A stretch of DNA of 53,667 nt from Raja brachyura (Eukaryota). Of this stretch, positions 17,550 through 42,700 are shown piece after piece. Positions within the stretch are counted from its first letter, which is position 1. Each line of letters starts with the position of its first letter. The notes under the pieces were generated by a model. That model was not told where the DNA came from, ran no database searches, and worked only from the letters and a program-made list of their open reading frames with translations. The stretch lies in contig OY740795.1 in the NCBI GenBank assembly GCA_963514005.1, positions 59,034,334 to 59,088,000 on the forward strand, in the 5' to 3' direction. The position numbers and the translations under genes are program-made.

Positions 17550-19525
17550 AAAAAGCTGGAGTAACTCAGTGGGACAGGCAGCTTCTCTGGAGAAAATAAA
17601 GAGGTGACATTTTGGCTCGGAACCCTTCGGACTCAAGTCTGAATGGAAGTCTTTTATTTTTACAAGTTGCTAAAGACGCCCCAAAAATTACACACTTTTA
17701 ACATCGCTCATTTTGATTCGCTGGTCGTTGTTTTCAAGAATATGAAACAATTCTTGGGTAGGACAGGTTTAGAGGGATATATGGCCCAAACGCAGGCTGG
17801 TGGGACGTGTGTAGATGGGACCAGATGGTCTGAAGTCTGAAGAAAGGTCTCGACCCAAAACATCACCCATTTCTTCTCTCCAGAGATGCTGCCTGTCCCG
17901 CTGAGTTACTCCAGCTGTTTGTGTCCATCTTTACTTCAGCCATGATTGACTGGTGGAATACCGAATGGCCTCATTCTGCTTCTATCCCTTATGAATTTAC
18001 ATCTTCAGTGTGAACCAACATCTGTACTTCCTTCCTACGCATGTTGGTCGGTGTGGGTAAGTTGGGCCGAAGGGCCTGATCCCCCATTGTGTGACTCCAT
18101 GACTGTAATTTGCTGCTTTTCTCGGTCGGGAGAATGCAAAGTGTGAAGTAAGGAGGATTTGAACAGGGCGATGTTGATACAACATCATGCCGGTGGCTAC
18201 AACTCTGCACGTTCCTCTACGTCGCTGCAATGTGGCCCTGAAACCGACAAGTGCCTGATCATTACACAAGGTAACTGAGTCTCCCAGTCTCCTAGTCGTG
18301 AAAGTTGATCTTGCCCTCTGTAGTATCCGCTGCAAAATTCAGGAACGTATCGCCCAAGTGGAGCCCCATTGCTGATATTTTTCTTTCCAATTCCCCCGGG
18401 AATGGAATGCAGAAATATAGCAGAGATAGGCAGCGACAGAGAGGGGAAAAACAGAGGGGCGGGCAATGAGAAAGTCTGCACCAATAGTCTTACGGGAGAA
18501 CGTGGCAGTGTGCTTCAATTCATGTAGGGAGGAACTGCAGATGCTGGTTTATACCTGAGATAGAGACAAAATGCTGGAGTAACTCAGCAGGACTGGCAGT
18601 ATCTCTGGAGAAAAAGGGATGGGTGACGTTTTGGAAACCTTCTTCAGTGTGATGAGGGGGAGAGAGACGGAAAACTGCTTAATTGTCTGACTGATGTTGC
18701 CTGCAGGACAGAACATAAAACACAGAACAGTGTTCGTCTCAGAAACAAGCCCTTCGGCCCATAAGTCCTAGGGGCAGAATTAGGCCATTCAGCACATTGG
18801 GTCTGCTCCGCCATTCAGACCCAGCTGATCTATCTTTCTGCCTCAACCCCAATCTCCTGCCTTTTCCACACAATCAAGAACCTCTCAAGAGTCAAGTATG
18901 TCTTATTGTCATATGTCCCGAAACGGAGCAATGAAATTCTTACTTGCAACAGTACAACAGGTATGTAAACATAGTAGCCTGTAAAATCTATAATCAACAA
19001 CTAAAATAGCTCAGTGTACAGTGTATGGATATAAAAATCTAGATAAACAATAATAGTGTAAAGTCAGAAACAATGTCCCCAAGTCTATATAGTTCAGAGC
19101 TTATTTGCAGGTTGTGTTTAATAGGCAGATGGCTGTAGGGAAGAAGCTGCTTCTGAACCTGGACGTTACAGTTTTCAGGCTCAGCTGTTATTCTACATTT
19201 AAAAATACCCAATGACCTGGTCTCAGCCGTCCGTGGCAATGAATTCCACAGATTCACCATCCTCAGAGTGCAGATGATGGAGCTGAGAAGGAATTTCTTC
19301 AGCCAGAAGGTGGCGAATCTGTGGAATTCATTGCCACTGACGGTGATAGAGGCCAATCACTGGGTATTTTTCAAATGGAGATTGATAAGTTTAGTTTAGA
19401 GATACAGTGTGGAAACTGGCCATTTGGCCCATCGAGTCAGTGCCGACCAGCGACCACCCATAAACTAGTTCTGCCCAACACACCAGGAACAATTTACAGA
19501 AAACAATTACCCTACAAACTTGTAC
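17550..19525. repeat. Patchwork of decayed CR1, Rex/Babar, SINE and Penelope-pLTR fragments
   Basis: pLTR pieces at 17550-17640, 17830-17930 and 18525-18650. Rex-type end on - at ~18890-19185 (LKTVTSRFRSSFFPTAI). CR1 pieces at 19190-19390. SINE-like 3' part on - at ~19390-19525. Confidence 0.6.
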
Positions 19526-19526
19526 T

Positions 19527-20985
19527 TAATGTAACCCCACTTTTTAAAAAAGGAGGGAGAGAGAAAGCGGGGAATTACAGACCAGTTAGTCTAACATCGG
19601 TAGTGGGGAAACTGCTAGAGTCAGTTATTAAAGATGGGATAGCAGCGCATTTGGAAAGTGGTGAAATCATTGGACAAAGTCAGCATGGATTTATGAAAGG
19701 TAAATCATGTCTGACAAATCTGATAGAATTTTTCGAGGATGTAACTAGTAGAGTGGATAAGGGAGAACCAGTGGATGTGTTATATCTAGACTTTCAGAAG
19801 GCTTTCGACAAGGTCCCACATAAGAGATTAGTATACAAACTTAAAGCACACGGTATTGGGGGTTCAGTATTGATGTGGATAGAGAACTGGCTAGCAGACA
19901 GGAGGCAAAGGGTAGGAGTAAACGGGTCCTTTTCAGAATGGCAGGCAGTGACTAGTGGGGTGCCGCAAGGCTCAGTGCTGGGACCCCAGCTATTTACAAT
20001 ATATATTAATGATTTGGACGAGGGAATTCAATGCAACATCTCCAAATTTGCAGATGATACCAAGCTGGGGGGTATAGTTAGGTGTGAGGAGGATGCTTGG
20101 AGGCTGCAGGGTGATTTGGATAGGCTGAGTGAATGGGCAGATGCATGGCAGATGCAGTATAATGTGGATAAATGTGAGGTTATCCACTTTGGTGGCAAAA
20201 ACATGAGGGTAAACTATTATCTGAATGGTGGCAGATTAGGAAAGGGGGAGATGCAACGAGACCTGGGTGTCATGGTACACCAGTCATTGAAAGTAGGCAT
20301 GCAGGTGCAGCAGGCAGTGAAGAAAGCAAATGGTATGTTAGCATTCATAGCGAAAGGATTTGAGTACAGGAGCAGGGAGGTTCTACTGCAGTTGTACAGG
20401 GTTTTGGTGAGGCCACACCTGGAGTATTGCGTACAGTTTTGGTCTCCAAATCTGAGGAAAGACATCCTTGCCATAGAGGGGGTACAGAGAAGATTCACCA
20501 GACTGATTCCTGGGATGTCAGGACTTTCATATGAGGAAAGATTGGATAGACTCGGCTTGTACTCGCTGGAATTTAGAAGATTGAGGGGGGATCTTATAGA
20601 AACTTACAAAATTCTTAAGGGGTTGGACAAGCTAGATGCTGGAAGATTGTTCCCGATGTTGGGGGAGTCCAGAACAAGGGGTCACAGTCTAAGGATAAGG
20701 GGGAATTCCTTTAGGACCGAAATGAGGAAAACATTATTTACACAGAGAGTGGTGAGTCTCTGGAATTCTCTGCCACAGAAGGTAGTTGAGGCCAGTTCAT
20801 TGGCTATATTTAAGAGGGCGTTCGATGTGGCACTTGTGGCTAAAGGGATCAGGGGGTATGGAGAGAAGGCAGGTACGGGATACTGAGTTGGATGATCAGC
20901 CATGATCACATTGAATGGCGGTGCAGGCTCGAAGGGCCGAATGGCCTACTCCTGCACCTATTTTCTATGTTTCTATATTTCTATG
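19527..20985 (+). mobile_element. CR1 family A, 5'-truncated, uninterrupted RT frame, directly abutting the satellite
   Basis: NVTPLFKKG...FADD...AGTGY* is open to 20886. Three 8-bp tail units are followed by GCTAGACACAAAA satellite. Confidence 0.95.
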
Positions 20986-23900
20986 CTAGACACAAAACCC
21001 ACTCCGCTAGACCCAAACCCACTCCGCTAGACCCAAACCCACTCCGCTAGACCCAATACCCACTCCGCTAGACCCAAACCCACTCCGCTAGACCCAAACC
21101 CCCTCCGCTAGACCCAAAACCACTCCGCTAGATCCAAACCCACTCCGCTAGACCCAAACCCTCTCCGCTAGACCCAAACCCACTGCGCTAGACCCAAACC
21201 CACTCCGCTAGACCCAAACCAACTCCGCTAGACCCAAACCCACTCCACTAGAACCAAACCCACTCCGCTAGACCCAAACCCACTCCGCTACACGGAAACC
21301 CACTCCGCCAGACCCACACTCCCACTCCGCTAGACCCACACTCCCACTCCGCTAGACCCAAAACCCACTCCGCGAGACCCAAACCACTCCGCAAGACCCA
21401 AACCCACTCCGCTAGACCCAAACCCACACCGTTAGACCCAAATCCACTCCGCCAGACCCACACTCCCACTCCGCTAGACCCAAACCCACTCCGCTAAACC
21501 CACACTCCCACTCCGCTAGACCCAAACCCACTCCTCTAGACCCAAACCCACTCCGCTAGACCCAAACCCACTCCGCTAGACCCAAACCCACTCCGCTAGG
21601 CCCAAACCCACTCCGCTAGACACAAAACCCACTCTGCTCGACCCAAACCCACTCCGCTATACCCAAACCCACTCCGCTAGACACAATACCCACTCCGCTA
21701 GACCCAAACCCACTCCGCTAGACCCAAACCCACTCCGCTAGACCCAAACCCACTCCGCTAGACCCAAACCCACTTCGCTATACCCAAACCCACTCCGCTA
21801 GAACCAAACCCACTCCGCTAGACCCAAACCCACTCCGCTACCCGCAAACCCACTCAGCTAGTCCCAAACCCACTCCGCTAGACCCAAACCCACTCCGCTA
21901 GACCCACACTCCCACTCCGCTAGACCCAAACCCACTCCGCTAGACCCAATCCCACTCCGCTAGACCCAAACCCACTCCGCTAGACCCAAACCCACTCCGC
22001 TAGGCCCAAACCCACTCCGCTAGACACAAAACCCACTCCGCTAGACCCAAACCCACTCCACTATATCCAAACCCACTCCGCTAGACCCAAACCCACTCCG
22101 CTAGAACCAAAACCACTCTGCTAGATCCAAACCCACTCCGCTAGAACCAAACCCTCTCCGCGAGACCCAAACCCACTGCACTAGACCCAAACCCACTCCG
22201 GTAGACCCAAACCCACTCCGCTAGACCCAAACCCACTCCGCTAGAACCAAACCCACTCCGCTAGACCCAAACCCACTCCGCTACACGCAAACCCACTCTG
22301 CTAGACCCACACTCCCACTCCGCTAGACCCACACTCCCAATCCGCTAGACCCACACTCCCACTCCGCTAGACCTAAACCACTCCGCAAGACCCAAACCCA
22401 CTCCGCTAGACCCAAACCCACTCCGTTAGACCCAAATCCACTCCGCTAGACCCACACTCCCACTCCGCTAGACCCAAACCCACTCCGCTAGACCCACACT
22501 CCCACTCCGCTAGACCCAAACCCACTCCGCTAGACCCAAACCCACTCCGCTAGACCCAAACCCACTCCGCTAGACCCAAACCCACTCCGCTAGGCCCAAA
22601 CCCACTCCGCTAGACACAAAACCCACTCCGCTCGACCCAAACCCACTCCGCTATACCCAAACCCACTCCGCTAGACCCAAATCCACTCCGCTAGACCCAC
22701 ACTCCCACTCCGCTAGACCCAAACCCACTCCGCTAGACCCACACTCCCACTCCGCTAGACCCAAACCCACTCCGCTAGACCCAAACCCACTCCGCTAGAC
22801 CTAAACCCACTCCGCTAGACCCAAACCCACTCCGCTAGGCCCAAACCCACTCCGCTAGACACAAAACCCACTCCGCTCGACCCAAACCCACTCCGCTATA
22901 CCCAAACCCACTCCGCTAGACCCAATACCCACTCCGCTAGACCCAAACCCACTCCGCTAGACCCAAACCCACTCCGCTAGACCCAAACCCTCTCTGCTAG
23001 ACACAAACCCACTTCGCTATACCCAAACCCACTCCGCTAGAACCAAACCCACTCCGCTAGACCCAAACCCACTCCGCTACCCGCAAACCCACTCTGCTAG
23101 ACCAACACTCCCACTCCGCTAGACCCACACTCCCACTCCGCTAGACCCACACTCCCACTCCGCTAGACCCAAACCACTCCGCAAGACCCAAACCCACTCC
23201 GCTAGACCCAAACCCACTCCGCTAGACCCAAACCCACTCCGCTAGACCTAAACCCACTCCGCTAGACCCAAACCCACTCCGCTAGACCCACACTCACTCC
23301 GCTAGACCCACACTCCCACTCCGCTAGACCCAAACCCATTCCGCTAGACACAAACCCACTCCGCTATACCCAAACCCACTTTGCTAGGCGCAAACCCACT
23401 CAGCTAGTCCCAAACCCACTCCGCTAGACCCAAACCCACTCCGCTAGACCCAATCCCACTCCGCTAGGCCCAAACCCACTCCGCTAGACCCAAACCCACT
23501 CCGCTAGGCCCAAACCCACTCCGCTAGACACAAAACCCACTCCGCTAGACCCAAACCCACTCCGCTATATCCAAACCCACTCCGCTAGACCCAAACCCAC
23601 TCCGCTAGAACCAAAACCACTCCGCTAGATGCAAACCCACTCCGCTAGAACCAAACCCTCTCCGCGAGACCCAAACCCACTGCACTAGACCCAAACCCAC
23701 TCCGCTAAACCCAAACCCACTCCGCTAGACCCAAACCCACTCCGCTAGAACCAAACCCACTCCGCTAGACCCAAACCCACTCCGCTACACGCAAACCCAC
23801 TCCGCTAGACCCACACTCCCACTCCGCTAGACCCACACTCCCAATCCGCTAGACCCACACTCCCACTCCGCTAGACCCAAACCACTCCGCAAGACCCAAA

Positions 23901-26900
23901 CAACTCCGCAAGACCCAAACCCACTCCACTAGACCCAAACCCACTCCGCTAGACCCAAACCCACTCCGCTAGACCTAAACCCACTCCGCTAGACCCAAAC
24001 CCACTCCGCTAGACCTACACTCACTCCGCTAGACCCACACTCACACTCCGCTAGACCCAAACCCATTCCGCTAGACACAAACCCACTCCGCTATACCCAA
24101 ACCCACTTTGCTAGACGCAATCCCACTCAGCTAGTCCCAAACCCACTCCGCTAGACCCAAACCCACTCCGCTTGACCCACACTCCCACTCCGCTAGACCC
24201 AAACCCACTCCGCTAGACCCAAACCCACTCCACTAGACCCAAACCCACTCCGGTAGACCCAAACCCACTCCGCTAGGCCCAAACCCACTCCGCTAGACAC
24301 AAAACCCACTCCGCTAGACCCAAACCCACTCCGCTATACCCAAACCTGCTCAGCTAGACCCAATACCCACTCCGCTAGACCCAAACCCACTCCGCTAGAC
24401 CCAAAACCACTCTGCTAGATCCAAACCCACTCCGCTAGAACCAAACCCTCTCCGCGAGACCCAAACCCACTGCACTAGACCCAAACCCACTCCGCTAGAC
24501 CCAAACCCACACCGCTAGACCCAAACCCACTCCGCTAGAACCAAACCCACTCCGCTAGACCCAAACCCACTCCGCAACACGCAAACCCACTCCGCTAGAC
24601 CAACACTCCCACTCCGCTAGACCCACACTCCCACTCCGCTAGACCCACACTCCCACTCCGCTAGACCCAAACCACTCCGCAAGACCCAAACCCACTCCGC
24701 TAGACCCAAACCCACTCCGCTAGACCCAAACCCAATCCGCTAGACCTAAACCCACTCCGCTAGACCCAAACCCACTCCGCTAGACCCACACTCACTCCGC
24801 TAGACCCACACTCCCACTCCGCTAGACCCAAACCCATTCCGCTAGACACAAACCCACTCCTCTATACCCAAACCCACTTTGCTAGGCGCAAACCCACTCA
24901 GCTAGTCCCAAACCCACTCCGCTAGACCCAAACCCACTCCGCTAGACCCAATCCCACTCCGCTAGGCCCAAACCCACTCCGCTAGACCCAAACCCACTCC
25001 GCTAGGCCCAAACCCACTCCGCTAGACACAAAACCCACTCCACTAGACCCAAACCCACTCCGCTATATCCAAACCCACTCCGCTAGACCCAAACCCACTC
25101 CGCTAGAACCAAAACCACTCCGCTAGATGCAAACCCACTCCGCTAGAACCAAACCCTCTCCGCGAGACCCAAACCCACTGCACTAGACCCAAACCCACTC
25201 CGCTAGACCCAAACCCACTCCACTAGACCCAAACCCACTCCGCTACACGCAAACCCAATCCGCTAGACCCACACTCCCACTCCGCTAGACCCACACTCCC
25301 AATCCGCTAGACCCACACTCCCACTCCGCTAGACCCAAACCCACTCCGTTAGACCCAAATCCACTCCGCTAGACCCACACTCCCACTCCGCTAGACCCAA
25401 ACCCACTCCGCTAGACCCACACTCCCACTCCGCTAGACCCAAACCCACTCCGCTAGACCCAAACCCAATCCGCTAGACCCAAACCCACTCCGCTAGACCC
25501 AAACCCACTCCGCTAGGCCCAAACCCACTCCGCTAGACACAAAACCCACTCCGCTCGACCCAAACCCACTCCGCTATACCCAAACCCACTCCGCTAGACA
25601 CAATACCCACTCCGCTAGACCGAAACCCACTCCGCTAGACCCAAACCCATTCCGCTAGACCCAAACCCACTTCGCTAGACCCAAACCCACTTCGCTATAC
25701 CCAAACGCACTCCGCTAGAACCAAACCCACTTCGCTAGACCCAAACCCACTCCGCTACACGCAAACCCACTCCGCTAGACCCGCACTCCCACTCCGCTAG
25801 ACCCACACTCCCACTCCGCTAGACCCACACTCCCACTCCGCTAGACACAAATAACTCCGCAAGACCCAAACCCACTCCACTAGACCCAAACCCACTCCGC
25901 TAGACCAACACTCCCACTCCGCTAGACCCACACTCCCACTCCGCTAGACCCACACTCCCACTCCGCTAGACCCAAACCACTCCGCAAGACCCAAACCCAC
26001 TCCGCTAGACCCAAACCCACTCCGCTAGACCCAAACCCACTCCGCTAGACCTAAACCCACTCCGCTAGACCCAAACCCACTCCGTTAGACCCACACTCAC
26101 TCCGCTAGACCCACACTCCCACTCCGCTAGACCCAAACCCATTCCGCTAGACACAAACCCACTCCGCAATAACCAAACCCACTTTGCTAGGCGCAAACCC
26201 ACTCAGCTAGTCCCAAACCCACTCCGCTAGACCCAAACCCACTCCGCTAGACCCAATCCCACTCCGCTAGGCCCAAACCCACTCCGCTAGACCCAAACCC
26301 ACTCCGCTAGGCCCAAACCCACTCCGCTAGACACAAAACCCACTCCGCTAGACCCAAACCCACTCCGCTATATCCAAACCCACTCCGCTAGACCCAAACC
26401 CACTCCGCTAGAACCAAAACCACTCCGCTAGATGCAAACCCACTCCGCTAGAACCAAACCCTCTCCGCGAGACCCAAACCCACTGCACTAGACCCAAACC
26501 CACTCCGCTAGACCCAAACCCACTCCGCTAGACCCAAACCCACTCCGCTAGAACCAAACCCACTCCGCGAGACCCAAACCCACTCCGCTACACGCAAACC
26601 CACTCCGCTAGACCCACACTCCCACTCCGCTAGACCCACACTCCCAATACGCTAGACCCACACTCCCACTCCGCTAGACCCAAACCACTCCGCAAGACCC
26701 AAACCCACTCTGCTAGACCCAAACCCACTCCGTTAGACCCAAATCCACTCCGCTAGACCCACACTCCCACTCCGCTAGACCCAAACCCACTCCGCTAGAC
26801 CCACACTCCCACTCCGCTAGACCCAAACCCACTCCGCTAGACCCAAACCCACTCCGCTAGACCCAAACCCACTCCGCTAGACCCAAACCCACTCCGCTAG

Positions 26901-29900
26901 GCCCAAACCCACTCCGCTAGACACAAAACCCACTCCGCTCGACCCAAACCCACTCCGCTATACCCAAACCCACTCCGCTAGACCCAAATCCACTCCGCTA
27001 GACCCACACTCCCACTCCGCTAGACCCAAACCCACTCCGCTAGACCCACACTCCCACTCCGCTAGACCCAAACCCACTCCGCTAGACCCAAACCCACTCC
27101 GCTAGACCTAAACCCACTCCGCTAGACCCAAACCCACTCCGCTAGGCCCAAACCCACTCCGCTAGACACAAAACCCACTCCGCTCGACCCAAACCCACTC
27201 CGCTATACCCAAACCCACTCCGCTAGACCCAATACCCACTCCGCTAGACCCAAACCCACTCCGCTAGACCCAAACCCACTCCGCTAGACCCAAACCCTCT
27301 CTGCTAGACACAAACCCACTTCGCTATACCCAAACCCACTCCGCTAGAACCAAACCCACTCCGCTAGACCCAAACCCACTCCGCTACCCGCAAACCCACT
27401 CCGCTACCCGCAAACCCACTCTGCTAGACCAACACTCCCACTCCGCTAGACCCACACTCCCACTCCGCTAGGCCCACACTCCCACTCCGCTAGACCCAAA
27501 CCACTCCGCAAGACCCAAACCCACTCCGCTAGACCCAAACCCACTCCGCTAGACCCAAACCCACTCCGCTAGACCCAAACCCACTCCGCTAGACCCAAAC
27601 CCACTCCGCTAGACCCACACTCACTCCGCTAGACCCACACTCCCACTCCGCTAGACCCAAACCCATTCCGCTAGACACAAACCCACTCCGCTATACCCAA
27701 ACCCACTTTGCTAGGCGCAAACCCACTCAGCTAGTCCCAAACCCACTCCGCTAGACCCAAACCCACTCCGCTAGACCCAATCCCACTCCGCTAGGCCCAA
27801 ACCCACTCCGCTAGACCCAAACCCACTCCGCTAGGCCCAAACCCACTCCGCTAGACACAAAACCCACTCCGCTAGACCCAAACCCACTCCGCTATATCCA
27901 AACCCACTCCGCTAGACCCAAACCCACTCCGCTAGAACCAAAACCACTCCGCTAGATGCAAACCCACTCCGCTAGAACCAAACCCTCTCCGCGAGACCCA
28001 AACCCACTGCACTAGACCCAAACCCACTCCGCTAAACCCAAACCCACTCCGCTAGACCCAAACCCACTCCGCTAGAACCAAACCCACTCCGCTAGACCCA
28101 AACCCACTCCGCTACACGCAAACCCACTCCGCTAGACCCACACTCCCACTCCGCTAGACCCACACTCCCAATCCGCTAGACCCACACTCCCACTCCGCTA
28201 GACCCAAACCACTCCGCAAGACCCAAACAACTCCGCAAGACCCAAACCCACTCCACTAGACCCAAACCCACTCCGCTAGACCCAAACCCACTCCGCTAGA
28301 CCTAAACCCACTCCGCTAGACCCAAACCCACTCCGCTAGACCTACACTCACTCCGCTAGACCCACACTCACACTCCGCTAGACCCAAACCCATTCCGCTA
28401 GACACAAACCCACTCCGCTATACCCAAACCCACTTTGCTAGACGCAATCCCACTCAGCTAGTCCCAAACCCACTCCGCTAGACCCAAACCCACTCCGCTT
28501 GACCCACACTCCCACTCCGCTAGACCCAAACCCACTCCGCTAGACCCAAACCCACTCCGCTAGACCCAAACCCACTCCGGTAGACCCAAACCCACTCCGC
28601 TAGGCCCAAACCCACTCCGCTAGACACAAAACCCACTCCGCTAGACCCAAACCCACTCCGCTATACCCAAACCTGCTCAGCTAGACCCAATACCCACTCC
28701 GCTAGACCCAAACCCACTCCGCTAGACCCAAAACCACTCTGCTAGATCCAAACCCACTCCGCTAGAACCAAACCCTCTCCGCGAGACCCAAACCCACTGC
28801 ACTAGACCCAAACCCACTCCGCTAGACCCAAACCCACACCGCTAGACCCAAACCCACTCCGCTAGAACCAAACCCACTCCGCTAGACCCAAACCCACTCC
28901 GCTACACGCAAACCCACTCCGCTAGACCAACACTCCCACTCCGCTAGACCCACACTCCCACTCCGCTAGACCCACACTCCCACTCCGCTAGACCCAAACC
29001 ACTCCGCAAGACCCAAACCCACTCCGCTAGACCCAAACCCACTCCGCTAGACCCAAACCCAATCCGCTAGACCTAAACCCACTCCGCTAGACCCAAACCC
29101 ACTCCGCTAGACCCACACTCACTCCGCTAGACCCACACTCCCACTCCGCTAGACCCAAACCCATTCCGCTAGACACAAACCCACTCCTCTATACCCAAAC
29201 CCACTTTGCTAGGCGCAAACCCACTCAGCTAGTCCCAAACCCACTCCGCTAGACCCAAACCCACTCCGCTAGACCCAATCCCACTCCGCTAGGCCCAAAC
29301 CCACTCCGCTAGACCCAAACCCACTCCGCTAGGCCCAAACCCACTCCGCTAGACACAAAACCCACTCCACTAGACCCAAACCCACTCCGCTATATCCAAA
29401 CCCACTCCGCTAGACCCAAACCCACTCCGCTAGAACCAAAACCACTCCGCTAGATGCAAACCCACTCCGCTAGAACCAAACCCTCTCCGCGAGACCCAAA
29501 CCCACTGCACTAGACCCAAACCCACTCCGCTAGACCCAAACCCACTCCACTAGACCCAAACCCACTCCGCTACACGCAAACCCAATCCGCTAGACCCACA
29601 CTCCCACTCCGCTAGACCCACACTCCCAATCCGCTAGACCCACACTCCCACTCCGCTAGACCCAAACCCACTCCGTTAGACCCAAATCCACTCCGCTAGA
29701 CCCACACTCCCACTACGCTAGACCCAAACCCACTCCGCTAGACCCACACTCCCACTCCGCTAGACCCAAACCCACTCCGCTAGACCCAAACCCAATCCGC
29801 TAGACCCAAACCCACTCCGCTAGACCCAAACCCACTCCGCTAGGCCCAAACCCACTCCGCTAGACACAAAACCCACTCCGCTCGACCCAAACCCACTCCG

Positions 29901-32900
29901 CTATACCCAAACCCACTCCGCTAGACACAATACCCACTCCGCTAGACCGAAACCCACTCCGCTAGACCCAAACCCATTCCGCTAGACCCAAACCCACTTC
30001 GCTAGACCCAAACCCACTTCGCTATACCCAAACGCACTCCGCTAGAACCAAACCCACTTCGCTAGACCCAAACCCACTCCGCTACACGCAAACCCACTCC
30101 GCTAGACCCGCACTCCCACTCCGCTAGACCCACACTCCCACTCCGCTAGACCCACACTCCCACTCCGCTAGACACAAATAACTCCGCAAGACCCAAACCC
30201 ACTCCACTAGACCCAAACCCACTCCGCTAGACCAACACTCCCACTCCGCTAGACCCACACTCCCACTCCGCTAGACCCACACTCCCACTCCGCTAGACCC
30301 AAACCACTCCGCAAGACCCAAACCCACTCCGCTAGACCCAAACCCACTCCGCTAGACCCAAACCCACTCCGCTAGACCTAAACCCACTCCGCTAGACCCA
30401 AACCCACTCCGCTAGACCCACACTCACTCCGCTAGACCCACACTCCCACTCCGCTAGACCCAAACCCATTCCGCTAGACACAAACCCACTCCGCTATAAC
30501 CAAACCCACTTTGCTAGGCGCAAACCCACTCAGCTAGTCCCAAACCCACTCCGCTAGACCCAAACCCACTCCGCTAGACCCAATCCCACTCCGCTAGGCC
30601 CAAACCCACTCCGCTAGACCCAAACCCACTCCGCTAGGCCCAAACCCACTCCGCTAGACACAAAACCCACTCCGCTAGACCCAAACCCACTCCGCTATAT
30701 CCAAACCCACTCCGCTAGACCCAAACCCACTCCGCTAGAACCAAAACCACTCCGCTAGATGCAAACCCACTCCGCTAGAACCAAACCCTCTCCGCGAGAC
30801 CCAAACCCACTGCACTAGACCCAAACCCACTCCGCTAGACCCAAACCCACTCCGCTAGACCCAAACCCACTCCGCTAGAACCAAACCCACTCCGCGAGAC
30901 CCAAACCCACTCCGCTACACGCAAACCCACTCCGCTAGACCCACACTCCCACTCCGCTAGACCCACACTCCCAATACGCTAGACCCACACTCCCACTCCG
31001 CTAGACCCAAACCACTCCGCAAGACCCAAACCCACTCCGCTAGACCCAAACCCACTCCGTTAGACCCAAATCCACTCCGCTAGACCCACACTCCCACTCC
31101 ACTAGACCCAAACCCACTCCGCTAGACCCACACTCCCACTCCGCTAGACCCAAACCCACTCCGCTAGACCCAAACCCACTCCGCTAGACCCAAACCCACT
31201 CCGCTAGACCCAAACCCACTCCGCTAGGCCCAAACCCACTCCGCTAGACACAAAACCCACTCCGCTCGACCCAAACCCACTCCGCTAGATGCAAACCCAC
31301 TCCGCTAGAACCAAACCCTCTCCGCGAGACCCAAACCCACTGCACTAGACCCAAACCCACTCCGCTAGACCCAAACCCACTCCACTAGACCCAAACCCAC
31401 TCCGCTACACGCAAACCCAATCCGCTAGACCCACACTCCCACTCCGCTAGACCCACACTCCCAATCCGCTAGACCCACACTCCCACTCCGCTAGACCCAA
31501 ACCCACTCCGTTAGACCCAAATCCACTCCGCTAGACCCACACTCCCACTCCGCTAGACCCAAACCCACTCCGCTAGACCCACACTCCCACTCCGCTAGAC
31601 CCAAACCCACTCCGCTAGACCCAAACCCAATCCGCTAGACCCAAACCCACTCCGCTAGACCCAAACCCACTCCGCTAGGCGCAAACCCACTCCGCTAGAC
31701 ACAAAACCCACTCCGCTCGACCCAAACCCACTCCGCTATACCCAAACCCACTCCGCTAGACACAATACCCACTCCGCTAGACCGAAACCCACTCCGCTAG
31801 ACCCAAACCCATTCCGCTAGACCCAAACCCACTTCGCTAGACCCAAACCCACTTCGCTATACCCAAACACACTCCGCTAGAACCAAACCCACTTCGCTAG
31901 ACCCAAACCCACTCCGCTACACGCAAACCCACTCCGCTAGACCCGCACTCCCACTCCGCTAGACCCACACTCCCACTCCGCTAGACCCACACTCCCACTC
32001 CGCTAGACACAAATAACTCCGCAAGACCCAAACCCACTCCACTAGACCCAAACCCACTCCGCTAGACCAACACTCCCACTCCGCTAGACCCACACTCCCA
32101 CTCCGCTAGACCCACACTCCCACTCCGCTAGACCCAAACCACTCCGCAAGACCCAAACCCACTCCGCTAGACCTAAACCCACTCCGCTAGACCCAAACCC
32201 ACTCCGCTAGACCTAAACCCACTCCGCTAGACCCAAACCCACTCCGCTAGACCCACACTCACTCCGCTAGACCCACACTCCCACTCCGCTAGACCCAAAC
32301 CCATTCCGCTAGACACAAACCCACTCCGCTATAACCAAACCCACTTTGCTAGGCGCAAACCCACTCAGCTAGTCCCAAACCCACTCCGCTAGACCCAAAC
32401 CCACTCCGCTAGACCCAATCCCACTCCGCTAGGCCCAAACCCACTCCGCTAGACCCAAACCCACTCCGCTAGGCCCAAACCCACTCCGCTAGACACAAAA
32501 CCCACTCCGCTAGACCCAAACCCACTCCGCTATATCCAAACCCACTCCGCTAGACCCAAACCCACTCCGCTAGAACCAAAACCACTCCGCTAGATGCAAA
32601 CCCACTCCGCTAGAACCAAACCCTCTCCGCGAGACCCAAACCCACTGCACTAGACCCAAACCCACTCCGCTAGACCCAAACCCACTCCGCTAGACCCAAA
32701 CCCACTCCGCTAGAACCAAACCCACTCCGCGAGACCCAAACCCACTCTGCTACACGCAAACCCACTCCGCTAGACCCACACTCCCACTCCGCTAGACCCA
32801 CACTCCCAATACGCTAGACCCACACTCCCACTCCGCTAGACCCAAACCACTCCGCAAGACCCAAACCCACTCCGCTAGACCCAAACCCACTCCGTTAGAC

Positions 32901-34954
32901 CCAAATCCACTCCGCTAGACCCACACTCCCACTCCACTAGACCCAAACCCACTCCGCTAGACCCACACTCCCACTCCGCTAGACCCAAACCCACTCCGCT
33001 AGACCCAAACCCACCCCGCTAGACCCAAACCCACTCCGCTAGACCCAAACCCACTCCGCTAGGCCCAAACCCACTCCGCTAGACACAAAACCCACTCCGC
33101 TCGACCCAAACCCACTCCGATATACCCAAACCCACTACGCTAGACCCAATACCCACTCCGCTAGACCGAAACCCACTCCGCTAGACCCAAACCCACTTCG
33201 CTATACCCAAACGCACTCCGCTAGAACCAAACCCACTCCGCTAGACCCAAACCCACTCCGCTACACGCAAACCCACTCCGCTAGACCCACACTCCCACTC
33301 CGCTAGACCCACACTCCCACTCCGCTAGACCCACACTCCCACTCCGCTAGACCCACACTCCCACTCCGCTAGACCCACACTCCCACTCCGCTAGACCCAA
33401 ACAACTCCGCAAGACCCAAACCCACTCCGCTAGACCCACACCCACTCCGCTAGACCCAAACCCTCTCCGCGAGACCCAAACCCACTGCACTAGACCCAAA
33501 CCCACTCCGCTAGACCCACACTCCCACTCCGCTAGACCCAAACAACTCCGCAAGACCCAAACCCACTCCACTAGACCCAAACCCACTCCGCTAGACCCAA
33601 ACCCTCTCCGCGAGACCCAAACCCACTGCACTAGACCCAAACCCACTCCGCTAGACCCACACTCCCACTCCGCTAGACCCAAACCCACTCCGCTAGACCC
33701 AAACCCACTCCGCTAGACCCAAACCCACTCCGCTAGACCCAAACCCACTCCGCTAGGCCCAAACCCACTCCGCTAGACACAAAACCCACTCCGCTCGACC
33801 CAAACCCACTCCGCTAGACCCAAACCCATTCCGCTAGACCCAAACCCACTCCGCTAGACCCAAACCCACTTCGCTATACCCAAACGCACTCCGCTAGAAC
33901 CAAACCCACTCCGCTAGACCCAAACCCACTCCGCTACACGCAAACCCACTCCGCTAGACCACACTCCCACTCCGCTAGACCCACACTCCCACTCCGCTAG
34001 ACCCACACTCCCACTCCGCTAGACCCAAACAACTCCGCAAGACCCAAACCCACTCCACTAGACCCAAACCCACTCCGCTAGACCCAAACCCACTCCGCTA
34101 GACCTAAACCCACTCCGCTAGACCCAAACCAACTCCGCTAGACCTACACTCACTCCGCTAGACCCACACTCACACTCCGCTAGAACCAAACCCATTCCGC
34201 TAGACACAAACCCACTCCGCTATACCCAAACCCACTTTGCTAGACGCAATCCCACTCAGCTAGTCCCAAACCCACTCCGCTAGACCCAAACCCACTCCGC
34301 TAGACCCACACTCCCACTCCGCTAGACCCAAACCCACTCCGCTAGACCCAAACCCACTCCGCTAGACCCAAACCCACTCCGGTAGACCCAAACCCACTCC
34401 GCTAGGCCCAAACCCACTCCGCTAGACACAAAACCCACTCTGCTAGACCCAAACCCACTCCGCTATACCCAAACCCGCTCAGCTAGACCCAATACCCACT
34501 CCGCTAGACCCAAACCCACTCCGCTAGACCCAAACCACTCTGCTAGATCCAAACCCACTCCGCTAGAACCAAACCCTCTCCGCGAGACCCAAACCCACTG
34601 CACTAGACCCAAACCCACTCCGCTAGACCCAAACCCACACCACTAGACCCAAACCCACTCCGCTAGAACCAAACCCACTCCGCTAGACCCAAACCCACTC
34701 CGCTACACGCAAACCCACTCCGCTAGACCCACACTCCCACTCCGCTAGACCCACACTCCCAATCCGCTAGACCCACACTCCCACTCCGCTAGACCCAAAC
34801 CACTCCGCAAGACCCAAACCCACTCCGCTAGACCCAAACCCACTCCGCTAGACCCACACTCCCGCACCGCTGGACACAAACCCACTCTGCTAGACCCAAA
34901 CCCACTCCGCTAGACCCAAACCCACTCCGCTAGGCCCAAACCCACACCGCTAGA
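20985..34954. repeat. 20-bp satellite array 1 (consensus GACCCAAACCCACTCCGCTA, with 19, 21 and 22-bp variants)
   Basis: About 14 kb of head-to-tail repeats with recurring ordered variants. Confidence 0.98.
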
Positions 34955-36796
34955 TATGTGAAGAGAAAGAGACTAGTTAAAACAAATGTTGGTCCCTTGC
35001 AGTCAGAAACAGGTGAATTGATCATGGGGAACAAGGACATGGCAGACCAATTGAATAACTACTTTGGTTCTGTCTTCACTAAGGAAGACATAAATAATCT
35101 GCCGGAAATAGCAGTGGAACGGGGGTCAAATAAGATGGAGGAACTGAGTGAAATCCAGGTGAGCCGGGAGGTGGTGTTGGGTAAATAGAACGGATTGAAG
35201 GCCGATAAATCCCCAGGGCCAGATAGTCTGCATCCCAGAGTACTCAAGGAGGTAGCCACAGAAATAGTGGATGCATTAGTGATAATTTTTCAAAATTCCT
35301 TAGATTCTGGAGTAGTTCCTGAGGATTGGAGGGTAGCTAATGTAACCCCACTTTTTAAAAAAGGAGGGAGAGAGAAAGCGGGGAATTACAGACCAGTTAG
35401 TCTAACATCGGTAGTGGGGAAACTGCTAGAGTCAGTTATTAAAGATGGGATAGCAGCGCATTTGGAAAGTGGTGAAATCATTGGACAAAGTCAGCATGGA
35501 TTTACGAAAGGTAAATCATGTCTGACAAATCTGATAGAATTTTTTGAGGATGTAACTAGTAGAGTGGATAAGGGAGAACCAGTGGATGTGTTATATCTAG
35601 ACTTTCAGAAGGCTTTCGACAAGGTCCCGCATAAGAGATTAGCATACAAACTTAAAGCACACGGTATTGGGGGTTCAGTATTGATGTGGATAGAGAACTG
35701 GCTAGCAGACAGGAGGCAAAGGGTAGGAGTAAACGGGTCCTTTTCAGAATGGCAGGCAGTGACTAGTGGGGTGCCGCAAGGCTCAGTGCTGGGACCCCAG
35801 CTATTTACAATATATATTAATGATTTGGACGAGGGAATTCAATGCAACATCTCCAAATTTGCAGATGATACCAAGCTGGGGGGTATAGTTAGGTGTGAGG
35901 AGGATGCTTGGAGGCTGCAGGGTGATTTGGATAGGCTGAGTGAATGGGCAGATGCATGGCAGATGCAGTATAATGTGGATAAATGTGAGGTTATCCACTT
36001 TGGTGGCAAAAACATGAGGGTAGACTATTATCTGAATGGTGGCAGATTAGGAAAGGGGGAGATGCAACGAGCCCTGGGTGTCATGGTACACCAGTCATTG
36101 AAAGTAGGCATGCAGGTGCAGCAGGCAGTGAAGAAAGCAAATGGTATGTTAGCATTCATAGCGAAAGGATTTGAGTATAGGAGCAGGGAGGTTCTACTGC
36201 AGTTGTACAGGGTTTTGGTGAGGCCACACCTGGAGTATTGCGTACAGTTTTGGTCTCCAAATCTGAGGAAAGACATCCTTGCCATAGAGGGGGTACAGAG
36301 AAGATTCACCAGACTGATTCCTGGGATGTCAGGACTTTCATATGAGGAAAGATTGGATAGACTCGGCTTGTACTCGCTGGAATTTAGAAGATTGAGGGGG
36401 GAACTTATATAAACTTACAAAATTCTTAAGGGGTTGGACAAGCTAGATGCTGGAAGATTGTTCCCGATGTTGGGGGAGTCCAGAACAAGGGGTCACAGTC
36501 GAAGGATAAGGGGGAATTCCTTTAGGACCGAAATGAGGAAAACATTCTTTACACAGAGAGTGGTGAGTCTCTGGAATTTTCTGCCACAGAAGGTAGTTGA
36601 GGCCAGTTCATTGGCTATATTTAAGAGGGCGTTCGATGTGGCACTTGTGGCTAAAGGGATCAGGGGGTATGCAGAGAAGACAGGTACGGGATACTGAGTT
36701 GGATGATCAGCCATGATCACAATGAATGGCGGTGCAGGCTCGAAGGGCCGACTGGCCTACTCCTGCACCTATTTTCTATGTTTCTATGTTACTGTG
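34955..36796 (+). mobile_element. CR1 family A, 5'-truncated, embedded in the satellite
   Basis: ORFs 34958..35188, 35195..36412 and 36434..36697 are in one frame broken by two stops. GCTAGA flanks both sides. Confidence 0.95.
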
Positions 36797-39700
36797 CTAG
36801 ACACAAAACCCACTCCGCTAGACCCAAACCCACTCCGCTAGACCCACACTCCCACTCCGCTAGACCCAAAACCCACTCCGCTAGACCCAAACCACTCCGC
36901 AAGACCCAAACCCACTCTGCTAGACCCAAACCCACACCGTTAGACCCAAATCCACTCCGCTAGACCCACACTCCCACTCCGCCAGACCCAAACCCACTCC
37001 GCTAGGCCCACACTCCCACTCCGCAAGACCCAAACCCACTCCGCTAGACCCAAACCCACTCCGCTAGACCCAAACCCACTCCGCTAGACCCAAACCCACT
37101 CCGCTAGGCCCAAACCCACTCCGCCAGACACAAAACCCACACTGCTCGACCCAAACCCACTCCGCTATACCCAAACCCACTCCGCTAGACCCAATACCCA
37201 CTCCACTAGACCCAAACCCACTCCGCTAGACCCAAACCCACTCCGCTAGACCCAAACCCACTCCGCTAGACCCAAACCCACTTCGCTATACCCAAACCCA
37301 CTCCGCTAGAACCAAACCCACTCAGCTAGACCCAAACCCACTCCGCTACCCGCAAACCCACTCCGCTAGACCAACACTCCCACTCCGCTAGACCCACACT
37401 CCCGCTCCGCTAGACCCACACTCCCACTCCGCTAGACCCAAACCACTCCGCAAGACCCAAACCCAGTCCGCTAGACCCAAACCCACTCCGCTAGACCCAA
37501 ACCCACTCCGCTAGACCAAAACCCACTCCGCTAGACCCAAACCCACTCCGCTAGACCCACACTCACTCCGCTAGACCCACACTCCCACTCCGCTAGACCC
37601 AAACCCATTCCACCAGACACAAACCCACTCCGCTATACCCAAACCCACTCTGCTAGACGGAAACCCACTCAGCTAGTCTCAAACCCACTCCGCTAGACCC
37701 AAACCCACTCCGCTAGACCCACACCCCCACTCCGCTAGACCCAAACCCACTCCGCTAGACCCAATCCCACTCCGCTAGACCCAAACCCACTCCGCTAGAC
37801 CCACACTCCCACTCCGCTAGACCCAAACCCACTCCGCTAGACCCAAACCCACTCCGCTAGACCCAAACCCACTCCGCTAGACCCAAACCCACTCCGCTAG
37901 GCCCAAACCCACTCCGCTAGACACAAAACCCACTCCGCTCGACCCAAACCCACTCCGCTATACCCAAACCCACTCCGCTAGACCCAATACCCACTCCGCT
38001 AGACCCAAACCCACTCCACTAGACCCAAACCCACTCCGCTAGACCCAAACCCACTCCGCTAGACCCAAACCCACTTCGCAAAACCCAAACGCACTCCGCT
38101 AGAACCAAACCCACTCCGCTAGACCAAAACCCACTCCGCTACACGCAAACCCACTCCGCTAGACCCACACTCCCACTCCGCTAGACCCACACTCCCACTC
38201 CGCTAGACCCACACTCCCAATCCGCAAGACCCACACTCCCACTCCGCTAGACCTAAACCACTCCGCAAGACCCAAACCCACTCCGCTAGACCCAAACCCA
38301 CTCCGTTAGACCCAAATCCACTCCGCTAGACCCACACTCCCACGCCGCTAGACCCAAACCCACTCCGCTAGACCCACACTCCCACTCCGCTAGACCCAAA
38401 CCCACTCCGCTAGACCCAAACCCACTCCGCTAGACCCAAACCCACTCCGCTAGACCCAAACCCACTCCGCTATACCCAAACCCACTCCGCTAGACCCAAT
38501 ACCCACTCCGCTAGACCCAAACCCACTCCGCTAGAGCCAAACCCACTCCGCTAGACCCAAACCCACTCCGCTAGACCCAAACCCACTTCGCAAAACCCAA
38601 ACGCACTCCGCTAGAACCAAACCCACTCCGCTAGACCCAAACCCACTCCGCTACACGCAAACCCACTCCGCTAGACCCACACTCCCACTCCGCTAGACCC
38701 ACACTCCCACTCCGCTAGACCCACACTCCCAATCCGCAAGACCCACACTCCCACTCTGCTAGACCTAAACCACTCCGCAAGACCCAAACCCACTCCGCTA
38801 GACCCAAACCCACTCCGTTAGACCCAAATCCACTCCACTAGACCCACACTCCCACTCCGCTAGACCCAAACCCACTCCGCTAGACCCACACTCCCACTCC
38901 GCTAGACCCAAACCCACTCCGCTAGACCCAAACCCACTCCGCTAGACCCAAACCCACTCCGCTAGACCCAAACCCACTCCGCTAGGCCCAAACCCACTCC
39001 GCTAGACACAAAATCCACTCCGCTCGACCCAAACCCACTCCGCTAGACCCAAACCCACTCCGCTAGACCCAATACCCACTCCGCTAGACCCAAACCCACT
39101 CCGCTAGACCCAAACCCACTCCGCTAGACCCAAACCCACTCCGCTACACGCAAACCCACTCCGCTAGACCCACACTCCCACTCCGCTAGACCCACACTCC
39201 CACTCCGCTAGACCCACACTCCCACTCCGCTAGACCCAAACCACTCCGCAAGACCCAAACCCACTCCACTAGACCCAAACCCACTCCGCTAGACCCAAAC
39301 CCACTCCGCTAGACCCACACTCACTCCGCTAGACCCACACTCCCACTCCGCTAGACCCAAACCCATTCCGCTAGACACAAACCCACTCCGCTATACCCAA
39401 ACCCACTTTGCTAGACGCAAACCCACTCAGCTAGTCCCAAACCCACTCCGCCAGACCCAAACCCACTCCGCTAGACCCACACTCCCACTCCGCTAGACCC
39501 AAACCCACTCCGCTAGACCCAAACCCACTCCGCTAGACCCAAACCCACTCCGCATTCCCAAACCCACTCTGCTAGGCCCAAATCCACTCCGCTAGACACA
39601 AAACCCACTCCGCTAGACCCAAACCCACTCCGCTATACGCAAACCCGCTCAGCTGGATCCAATACCCACTCCGCTAGACCCAAACCCACTCCGCTAGACC

Positions 39701-42700
39701 CAAACCCACTCCGCTAGAACCAAAACCACTCCGCTAGATCCAAACCCACTCCGCTAGAACCAAACCCTCTCCGCGAGACCCAAACCCCCTGCACTAGACC
39801 CAAACCCACTCCGCTAGACCCAAACCCACACCGCTAGACCCAAACCCACTCCGCTAGAACCAAACCCACTCCGCTAGACCCAAACCCACTCCGCTACACG
39901 CAAACCCACTCCGCTAGACCCACACTCCCACTCCGCTAGACCCACACTCCCAATCCGCTAGACCCACACTCCCACTCCGCTAGACCCAAACCACTCCGCA
40001 AGACCCAAACCCACTCCGCTAGACCCAAACCCACTCCGTTAGACCCAAATCCGCTCCGCTAGACCCACACTCCCACTCCGCTAGACCCAAACCCACTCCG
40101 CTAGACCCACACTCCCACTCCGCTAGACCCAAACCCACTCCGCTAGACCCAAACACACTCCGCTAGACCCAAACCCACTCCGCTAGATGCAAACCCACTC
40201 ACGCATGACCCAAACCCACTCCGCAAGACACAAACCAACTCCGCTAGACCAAAACTCACTACGCTAAACCCAAACCCACTCCGCTAGACCCACACTCCCA
40301 CTCCGCGAGACACAAACCCACTCCGCTAGACCCAAACCCATTCCACCAGACACAAACCCACTCCGCTATACCCAAACCCACTCTGCTAGACGGAAACCCA
40401 CTCAGCTAGTCTCAAACCCACTCCGCTAGACCCAAACCCACTCCGCTAGACCCACACCCCCACTCCGCTAGACCCAAACCCACTCCGCTAGACCCAATCC
40501 CACTCCGCTAGACCCAAACCCACTCCGCTAGACCCACACTCCCACTCCGCTAGACCCAAACCCACTCCGCTGGACCCAAACCCACTCCGCTAGACCCAAA
40601 CCCACTCCGCTAGACCCAAACCCACTCCGCTAGGCCCAAACCCACTCCGCTAGACACAAAACCCACTCCGCTCGACCCAAACCCACTCCGCTATACCCAA
40701 ACCCACTCCGCTAGACCCAATACCCACTCCGCTAGACCCAAACCCACTCCACTAGACCCAAACCCACTCCGCTAGACCCAAACCCACTCCGCTAGACCCA
40801 AACCCACTTCGCAAAACCCAAACGCACTCCGCTAGAACCAAACCCACTCCGCTAGACCAAAACCCACTCCGCTACACGCAAACCCACTCCGCTAGACCCA
40901 CACTCCCACTCCGCTAGACCCACACTCCCACTCCGCTAGACCCACACTCCCAATCCGCAAGACCCAAACCCACTCCGCTAGACCCAAACCCACTCCGTTA
41001 GACCCAAATCCACTCCGCTAGACCCACACTCCCACGCCGCTAGACCCAAACCCACTCCGCTAGACCCACACTCCCACTCCGCTAGACCCAAACCCACTCC
41101 GCTAGACCCAAACCCACTCCGCTAGACCCAAACCCACTCCGCTAGACCCAAACCCACTCCGCTATACCCAAACCCACTCCGCTAGACCCAATACCCACTC
41201 CGCTAGACCCAAACCCACTCCGCTAGAGCCAAACCCACTCCGCTAGACCCAAACCCACTCCGCTAGACCCAAACCCACTTCGCAAAACCCAAACGCACTC
41301 CGCTAGAACCAAACCCACTCCGCTAGACCCAAACCCACTCCGCTACACGCAAACCCACTCCGCTAGACCCACACTCCCACTCCGCTAGACCCACACTCCC
41401 ACTCCGCTAGACCCACACTCCCAATCCGCAAGACCCACACTCCCACTCTGCTAGACCTAAACCACTCCGGAAGACCCAAACCCACTCCGCTAGACCCAAA
41501 CCCACTCCGTTAGACCCAAATCCACTCCACTAGACCCACACTCCCACTCCGCTAGACCCAAACCCACTCCGCTAGACCCACACTCCCACTCCGCTAGACC
41601 CAAACCCACTCCGCTAGACCCAAACCCACTCCGCTAGACCCAAACCCACTCCGCTAGACCCAAACCCACTCCGCTAGGCCCAAACCCACTCCGCTAGACA
41701 CAAAATCCACTCCGCTCGACCCAAACCCACTCCGCTAGACCCAAACCCACTCCGCTAGACCCAATACCCACTCCGCTAGACCCAAACCCACTCCGCTAGA
41801 CCCAAACCCACTCCGCTAGACCCAAACCCACTCCGCTACACGCAAACCCACTCCGCTAGACCCACACTCCCACTCCGCTAGACCCACACTCCCACTCCGC
41901 TAGACCCACACTCCCACTCCGCTAGACCCAAACCACTCCGCAAGACCCAAACCCACTCCACTAGACCCAAACCCACTCCGCTAGACCCAAACCCACTCCG
42001 CTAGACCCACACTCACTCCGCTAGACCCACACTCCCACTCCGCTAGACCCAAACCCATTCCGCTAGACACAAACCCACTCCGCTATACCCAAACCCACTT
42101 TGCTAGACGCAAACCCACTCAGCTAGTCCCAAACCCACTCCGCCAGACCCAAACCCACTCCGCTAGACCCACACTCCCACTCCGCTAGACCCAAACCCAC
42201 TCCGCTAGACCCAAACCCACTCCGCTAGACCCAAACCCACTCCGCATTCCCAAACCCACTCTGCTAGGCCCAAATCCACTCCGCTAGACACAAAACCCAC
42301 TCCGCTAGACCCAAACCCACTCCGCTATACGCAAACCCGCTCAGCTGGATCCAATACCCACTCCGCTAGACCCAAACCCACTCCGCTAGACCCAAACCCA
42401 CTCCGCTAGAACCAAAACCACTCCGCTAGATCCAAACCCACTCCGCTAGAACCAAACCCTCTCCGCGAGACCCAAACCCCCTGCACTAGACCCAAACCCA
42501 CTCCGCTAGACCCAAACCCACACCGCTAGACCCAAACCCACTCCGCTAGAACCAAACCCACTCCGCTAGACCCAAACCCACTCCGCTACACGCAAACCCA
42601 CTCCGCTAGACCCACACTCCCACTCCGCTAGACCCACACTCCCAATCCGCTAGACCCACACTCCCACTCCGCTAGACCCAAACCACTCCGCAAGACCCAA

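What the first reader, a model, noticed from the sequence alone, without database searches (positions are those of the whole stretch)
19527..36960. Two CR1 copies share the same CR1-satellite junction: a duplicated LINE+satellite unit about 15.8 kb apart
Seen: both CR1s end in three 8-bp tail units followed by the same 21-bp variant GCTAGACACAAAACCC (20985 and 36796). Both share changes absent from the sister copy at 357-2105 (for example KRAFDVAL). Both are followed by the variant CACACCGTTAG (21425 and 36933), which I did not see elsewhere, with about 300 bp less spacing in the second. The internal copy sits at the normal GGCCC-unit to GACACAAAA-unit position with GCTAGA on both sides, like an original insertion. 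Inference: one insertion was co-amplified with the satellite; independent site-specific targeting is less likely.
Basis: partly seen in the sequence, partly recalled or inferred. Interest (0 to 1): 0.7.

Follow-up and report, generated by a model that had tools for sequence, protein, structure and literature searches.

The report
One LINE insertion duplicated within satellite
Two broken copies of a common jumping gene (a CR1-type LINE) sit 15.8 kb apart in a chromosome-end satellite and very likely descend from one insertion that was probably copied early along with about 1.6 kb of satellite; such co-copying is common in this genome, so the pair is ordinary, but one copy forms the satellite's edge.

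Summary
Copy A (19527-20985) and copy B (34955-36796) are 5'-truncated CR1-type LINEs joined to the same monomer variant of a 20-bp satellite that runs about 0.69 Mb to the telomere.

One origin is well supported:
- Both carry a base found in 49 of 26,453 copies.
- Three composite satellite markers occur only behind A and B in 104 kb.

- The shared tail and junction phase are not diagnostic; 14 other insertions use that phase.
- The homologous unit is the CR1 plus about 1.6 kb, not 15.8 kb.
- The split was early: 1 shared versus 6 and 10 private changes.

B looks like the original insertion. A lacks its first 382 bp and is fused to a cut SINE-like element, forming the array edge. The element is not targeted to the satellite (61,780 tails genome-wide). 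Co-amplified copies are common here.

A side find, a CR1-satellite-CR1 insert in unique DNA on C26, suggests CR1 can move satellite. That leaves about 15% for an RNA route to A. The scan noted a similar re-capped CR1 in this genome earlier.

The parts
17550..19526 (.). Non-satellite segment with paralogs on several contigs, ending in a SINE-like element (about 19388-19526; the label is recalled) that is cut at copy A
   Evidence: paralogs L177, L178, L179 and L183 (88-96% identical) continue into the rest of the element where the window switches to CR1
19527..20985 (+). CR1 copy A: 5'-truncated, reverse-transcriptase frame open, 382 bp shorter than B, 1-nt microhomology at the 5' join, no target duplication; forms the edge of the array
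   Evidence: RVT_1, E 3e-33
20823..20823 (+). Rare derived base shared with B (the F of KRAF)
   Evidence: 49 versus 26,404 copies genome-wide; 0 of 30 same-haplotype copies
20985..22608 (+). Three higher-order satellite units behind A, collinear with those behind B
   Evidence: 28 differences in 1,241 aligned bases; composite markers
22609..31242 (+). Younger 4,307-bp tandem duplication of satellite between the two copies
   Evidence: 9 mismatches in 4,307 bases, 1 gap
34929..34954 (+). Left target flank of B: a GGCCC unit, then GCTAGA (TAGA ambiguous with CR1)
34955..36796 (+). CR1 copy B: 5'-truncated, about 1.84 kb, with both insertion junctions in satellite; likely the original insertion
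   Evidence: RVT_1, E 4e-33
36634..36634 (+). Rare derived base shared with A
36796..38490 (+). Satellite units behind B, homologous to those behind A; the first unit lacks 15 monomers
20985..53667 (+). Start of a 20-bp satellite array with higher-order structure; it continues about 0.69 Mb on G000:C15 and ends directly in TTAGGG repeats

Best explanation
A and B very likely descend from one CR1-type LINE insertion, which was probably copied early at DNA level together with at least 1.6 kb of downstream satellite, after which the proximal copy was likely cut by a deletion that now forms the edge of the array.

Step 1 (junctions shown, mechanism inferred from established LINE biology): target-primed reverse transcription at the G|CTAGA position of the monomer gave B, with a 1-6 bp target duplication.
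Step 2 (homology shown, route inferred): unequal exchange or break repair duplicated the CR1 and its flank. This happened early, about a tenth of the way from insertion to now and at most about half (my Poisson arithmetic on 1 shared change against a mean of 9).
Step 3 (junction shown, route inferred): end-joining with 1-nt microhomology fused a SINE-like element to base 383 of the proximal copy, removing everything between.
Step 4 (shown): later satellite expansions widened the gap to 15.8 kb.

I put the single origin at about 0.95 and this full DNA-level route at 0.72. No function is implied.
For: Shared rare base: 49 of 26,453 copies and 0 of 30 same-haplotype copies. Its carriers lie on several haplotype backgrounds, as expected of recurrent mutation rather than a source-element marker; at least 2,477 copies share A's haplotype.

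Flanks: three composite markers occur exactly twice in 104 kb, behind A and B. Three more occur 3-5 times and in the same order. At k=24, among 71 other units, B1's best match is A1, A2's is B2 and A3's is B3.

B has both insertion junctions. Four paralogs show the element left of A intact.

The process is common here. 8 of the 14 other insertions at this phase exist as 2-4 copies. 18 of 20 stretches, chosen because junctions clustered there, hold repeated copies with the same 5' end.
Against: CR1 sequence alone is weak evidence. There is only 1 shared change. A and B differ at 16 of 1,436 sites, as much as dispersed siblings do, and the tree does not resolve them as sisters (that comparison set was partly selected on the shared base). 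28 of 435 pairs of independent copies also share some derived base, 15 of them at one site.

Plain alignment scores over the whole flank rank the A/B pair only 8th in both directions. A1's best rare-word matches are four distant units, with B1 5th or 6th; the two of these examined share only isolated words. At k=16, A3 does not pick B3.

Flank divergence (2.3%) is about twice CR1 divergence (1.1-1.3%).

The deletion is not dated. No paralog shows satellite near the lost segment. No read support was obtained.
Confidence: 0.72

Rival explanations
1. RNA route: a transcript running through B into the satellite was reverse-transcribed by CR1 proteins and inserted into the SINE-like element as a 5'-truncated copy plus flank. 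Later out-of-register recombination with the source array removed the right end and joined this seed to the array upstream of B.
For: A is 5'-truncated relative to B and joined to non-satellite DNA, as a retrocopy would be. G000:C26 near 22.16 Mb holds a 936-bp CR1, 385 bp of satellite and a 101-bp CR1 3' end inside a SINE-like element, with a short target duplication. Copies of 4.3-4.5 kb sit inside arrays.
Against: There is no second CR1 tail and no remainder of the SINE-like element between A and B. The route needs at least 3 kb of reverse transcription, and an exchange that avoids the near-perfect A/B homology and lands just upstream of B. The source of the C26 insert was not found among the loci held.
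Confidence: 0.15
2. Gene conversion copied the CR1 from one satellite block into the matching site of an older paralogous block; the edge deletion followed.
For: Flanks differ at 28 of 1,241 bases, CR1s at 16 of 1,436.
Against: In clear co-amplified pairs the satellite flank also tends to differ more than the CR1: 36 of 3,955 versus 16 of 9,092 over ten pairs, though 28 of the 36 come from one pair.
Confidence: 0.06
3. Two independent insertions at a preferred site of the satellite (site-specific targeting).
For: The G|CTAGA phase is reused, with 16 distinct 5' ends counting A and B. The CR1 tree does not join A and B.
Against: It needs the same 0.19% base, the same orientation and minority phase, the same 2.4% monomer variant, and the only two units with the composite markers. 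The element is dispersed, with 61,780 exact tails.
Confidence: 0.03
4. Assembly artefact, for example two haplotypes joined in tandem.
For: The region is highly repetitive and no reads spanning the junctions were seen.
Against: The copies differ at 18 scattered sites and by separate multi-monomer deletions. The satellite between them has its own nested duplication history.
Confidence: 0.03

Closest known systems
Canonical vertebrate CR1 LINEs (PMC13343379, PMC4316615; passages read)
   Same: Esterase-type ORF1 and an APE endonuclease plus RT ORF2 in the 4.5-kb sibling L159; octamer tail, no poly-A, 5' truncation.
   Different: Placement against reference CR1 and L2 RT sequences and the 3' hairpin were not tested here.
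Retrotransposon-containing segmental duplications in maize centromere 10 (PMC4806543; passages read)
   Same: Adjacent duplication of element plus repeat, a breakpoint inside the element, microhomology, and younger higher-order expansions.
   Different: The maize 'CR1' is an unrelated LTR element; here it is a LINE and a 20-bp vertebrate satellite, and centromere status is untested.
Chicken HinfI tandem repeat with an embedded CR1, and human composite satellites (as described in PMC9659126 and 10.1101/2021.07.12.452052; passages read)
   Same: A LINE fragment amplified as part of a tandem repeat.
   Different: At this locus there are only two copies and no regular period; denser families occur on C37, C25 and C33.
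Ape subterminal satellite caps with duplicated spacers (PMC12758386; abstract and Discussion read)
   Same: A short-monomer satellite at chromosome ends, punctuated by duplicated non-satellite pieces, with duplicated DNA at the boundary.
   Different: Spacers here are 0.1-4.5 kb LINE insertions, not segmental duplications of about 30 kb; methylation and ectopic exchange are untested.
Sequence-specific non-LTR elements (R2, R4, CRE as in PMC2881922, passages read; R1, Tx1, SART and TRAS recalled)
   Same: Repeated use of a few positions within a tandem repeat.
   Different: Not confined to the repeat, several phases on both strands, and an ordinary APE endonuclease.

Membership tests
CR1 LINE | ORF2 with APE endonuclease and RT | tested here: met
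   L159 ORF2 (1,025 aa): PF03372 E 2.5e-11 and PF00078 E 2.4e-32; A and B carry the RT part only
CR1 LINE | Esterase-type ORF1 | tested here: met
   L159 ORF1: PF13472 E 1.1e-12; L159 is 98.6-99.0% identical to A and B
CR1 LINE | Octamer tail and no poly-A | tested here: met
   (TTTCTATG)n tails
CR1 LINE | RT falls in the canonical CR1 clade rather than in esterase-bearing L2 | not tested
   No reference RT set was held
CR1 LINE | Conserved 3' UTR hairpin | not tested
   Not folded
Co-amplified LINE-satellite unit | Same 3' junction and shared rare flank variants | tested here: met
Co-amplified LINE-satellite unit | Shared private mutations in the element | tested here: inconclusive
   One rare shared base against 6 and 10 private ones; the tree is unresolved
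Co-amplified LINE-satellite unit | Same 5' junction | tested here: not met
   A starts 382 bp later, in non-satellite DNA; this needs a second event
Site-specific non-LTR retrotransposon | Copies confined to or enriched in the target repeat | tested here: not met
   61,780 tails, 1 per 44 kb, against at most 521 tail-satellite matches in at least 36 Mb of satellite; the patterns miss mutated and GCCAGA-type junctions
Site-specific non-LTR retrotransposon | One fixed position and orientation | tested here: not met
   Four classes of position on two strands
Centromeric satellite | CENP-A binding or location at the primary constriction | not testable with these tools
   Only the terminal position on C15 and the abundance are shown

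The most novel reading that the evidence does not exclude
CR1 proteins copy satellite-containing RNA into unique DNA and so seed new arrays, and the 0.69-Mb terminal satellite cap of this chromosome was attached through such a retrocopy (copy A). The C26 CR1-satellite-CR1 insert would be an unexpanded seed caught at the first step.
Probability: 0.15. Interest if true: 0.7.

Novelty: new member of a known kind. Interest (0 to 1): 0.3.

Why it matters
The pair itself is an ordinary product of satellite turnover. It is useful as an internal clock: insertion, early duplication, edge formation and younger expansions can be put in order.

The surroundings matter more. This is a major satellite (at least 36 Mb) in what looks like a skate or ray genome, and my searches found no description of it. 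Its roughly 65-70 distinct CR1 insertions sampled here fall on a few positions of one fixed 20-bp target, which gives a natural read-out of CR1 nicking and priming preference.

One insert suggests that a LINE can carry satellite into unique DNA. If that is general, it would make a long-standing question testable: how satellites reach new chromosomes.

Tried and rejected
Site-specific targeting. It looked likely, where all 26 satellite junctions had one phase. That was query bias; any-phase patterns showed the AAA run dominates.

'No private shared mutation'. This was circular, because the comparison copies had been picked on that very base; it was corrected.

A as a chimera of another subfamily. 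No foreign haplotype was seen in its 5' part; a same-haplotype donor cannot be excluded.

Whole-flank alignment scoring did not single out the pair, and the script stopped early in the family section.

Public runs. 20 were listed and 4 were laid on 18700-19900. All were short contigs swamped by repeats and no listed piece bridged the junction, so this is uninformative.

CR1 at array edges as a rule. Two other edges were read (C1 near 150.806 Mb and the far end of C15) and neither has a CR1. Probes on C18, C36 and C37 only bracketed or missed their edges.

Paralogs of the left segment show no satellite within 10-20 kb, or in sparse probes beyond. The source of the C26 satellite piece was not found among the loci held.

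Literature searches gave no paper on this satellite or on CR1-borne satellite transduction. Most subscription papers and all supplements were not seen.

Full report
Setting. The window is G000:C15:59,034,334-59,088,000 of a 2.7-Gb genome. An earlier scan note calls it ray- or skate-like (unchecked, but it fits the repeat content as I recall it). A 20-bp satellite begins at 20985. It was read continuously for 80 kb beyond the window and probed further; it ends near 59.743 Mb directly in TTAGGG repeats, about 0.69 Mb in all. Exact monomers number 1,821,505 genome-wide, so at least 36 Mb; scaling from sampled loci gives up to about 120 Mb.

The element. A and B both encode part of an RT. A 4.5-kb sibling inside a C37 array has open frames for an esterase-type ORF1 and an APE-RT ORF2. 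With the octamer tail this fits canonical CR1 as described in PMC13343379 and PMC4316615 (passages). I did not test clade placement.

The observation. All coordinates check out. A and B differ at 18 of 1,456 bases. B has both junctions in satellite, with 4 nt of 5' microhomology and a target duplication of 1-6 bp. This is the pattern expected of target-primed insertion (PMC2881922, passages). A starts 382 bp later and is fused to a SINE-like element. Four paralogs of that segment show the element continuing intact, and its remainder is not found behind A.

Is the shared junction informative? Not by itself. A junction query returned 26 satellite junctions (40 of 1,289 candidates scored), 24 of them with three tail units at the same G|CTAGA phase. 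They resolve into 16 distinct 5' ends, counting A and B, so the phase is reused.

Any-phase patterns gave 313 sense and 208 antisense matches, with double counts, and only the first 100 rows of each were listed. By eye, about 85 of the 100 sense rows join at the AAA run, 7 at G|CTAGA, 6 are outside satellite, and 2 look like satellite variants (the one checked had no CR1). Fetching 80 stretches chosen from these rows gave 39 distinct 5' ends at the AAA run, 13 at antisense TTTGGG and 3 at other antisense positions; a few of these are derivatives of one another. Several AAA-phase joins have no microhomology, so a nicking preference next to the T-run is likely (inference; the likeness to L1's TTTT/AA site is recalled). 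With 61,780 exact tails genome-wide, the satellite is not enriched.

Are A and B sisters? The KRAF base occurs in 49 copies against 26,404 with the ancestral base, on several haplotype backgrounds. At least 2,477 copies share A's haplotype. Against the first 30 of these, A and B share exactly one derived base and have 6 and 10 private ones in 1,436 bp. My first comparison found no shared private base because its copies had been selected on that base. One shared base is modest evidence: 28 of 435 independent pairs share something, and the tree is unresolved.

The flanks are stronger. A monomer alignment is collinear over three higher-order units, with 28 differences in 1,241 bases and deletions on both sides. 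Three composite markers occur only behind A and B in 104 kb, and at k=24 three of six reciprocal tests rank the partner first, two rank it second behind a young local duplicate, and one ranks it fifth. Plain alignment scores do not single the pair out. Taken together, independent origin needs several coincidences of a few percent or less each.

Size and timing. No clear collinearity appears beyond about 1.6 kb. The DNA between the copies holds a 4,307-bp tandem pair 0.21% apart and 1,384-bp repeats 0.29% apart, all younger than the A/B split. One shared change against a mean of nine per lineage puts the split early. The other co-amplified pairs at this phase differ by 0-0.8% in the CR1, so A/B is the oldest of those compared.

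How common is it? 8 of the other 14 insertions at this phase exist in 2-4 copies. 18 of 20 stretches chosen for clustered junctions hold repeated copies with one 5' end; one C37 family has 13 copies in five stretches. Similar events are in print for maize centromeres (PMC4806543), the chicken HinfI repeat (as described in PMC9659126), human composite satellites (10.1101/2021.07.12.452052) and ape subterminal caps (PMC12758386).

The open point is how A came to the edge. A deletion by end-joining is simplest. However, G000:C26 near 22.16 Mb holds, inside a SINE-like element and with a short target duplication, a 936-bp CR1, 385 bp of satellite and a 101-bp CR1 3' end. This looks like a reverse-transcribed chimera, although a repair origin is possible, as an earlier scan note argued for a similar insert (e1-9816063, not checked here). 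A could be such a copy of B whose right end was later lost, but nothing of that right end remains and the exchange needed is unlikely. I give it 0.15.

Verdict. It is a new member of a known kind. Interest 0.3, mostly for the edge junction and the side findings.

Noticed in passing
L218 + L303 (G000:C26, about 22,161,090-22,162,520): Composite insert in unique DNA inside a SINE-like element: 936-bp CR1, 385 bp of satellite, a 101-bp CR1 3' end and a short target duplication; likely LINE-mediated movement of satellite.
   Followed up: partly
Satellite arrays on C13, C18, C25-C28, C33, C36-C38 (L187-L266): CR1 3' junctions cluster at the AAA/TTT run of the monomer on both strands, with G|CTAGA second; a natural map of target preference.
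   Followed up: partly
L159/L160 (C37, 23.83 and 24.41 Mb); L220 (C27, 1.55 Mb): A 4.5-kb CR1 with both frames open in L159, duplicated 580 kb away inside satellite; another copy of at least 4.3 kb on C27.
   Followed up: partly
L202, L232, L233, L236, L238, L241 (C37): A co-amplified 670-bp CR1 has antisense satellite on its 5' side and sense satellite on its 3' side, so it sits at an inversion breakpoint. In L191, a copy with the same 5' end carries the 3' junction of another family, suggesting recombination between CR1s.
   Followed up: no
L068 (G000:C15, about 59,161,700-59,167,400): An inversion of about 5.6 kb within the array.
   Followed up: no
L069-L073, L169-L173, L299-L301, L074: The C15 array switches from GCTAGA monomers near the edge to GCCAGA monomers from 59.2 Mb or earlier. 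It abuts TTAGGG repeats at 59.743 Mb, and non-telomeric DNA lies before the final telomeric tract.
   Followed up: partly
window 17550-19526; L176-L184: The segment left of A has 88-97% paralogs on C6, C10, C14, C15 (56.9 Mb), C26 and C929, several with their own CR1 insertions.
   Followed up: partly
window 357-2105 (-), 6046-6252 (-), 11394-12422 (+), 16555-17550 (+): Other CR1-like copies at 97%, 93%, 64% and 90% identity to B; the first has a perfect 25-bp tandem duplication at its 5' end, 2056-2105.
   Followed up: no
L004, L012, L013, L017, L162: 5' junctions with short filler, duplicated or inverted CR1 pieces.
   Followed up: no
L297/L298 (G000:C1, 150.806 Mb): An internal array of the same satellite begins inside a SINE-like element, with 22-bp and then 26-bp spaced units and no CR1 at the edge.
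   Followed up: no
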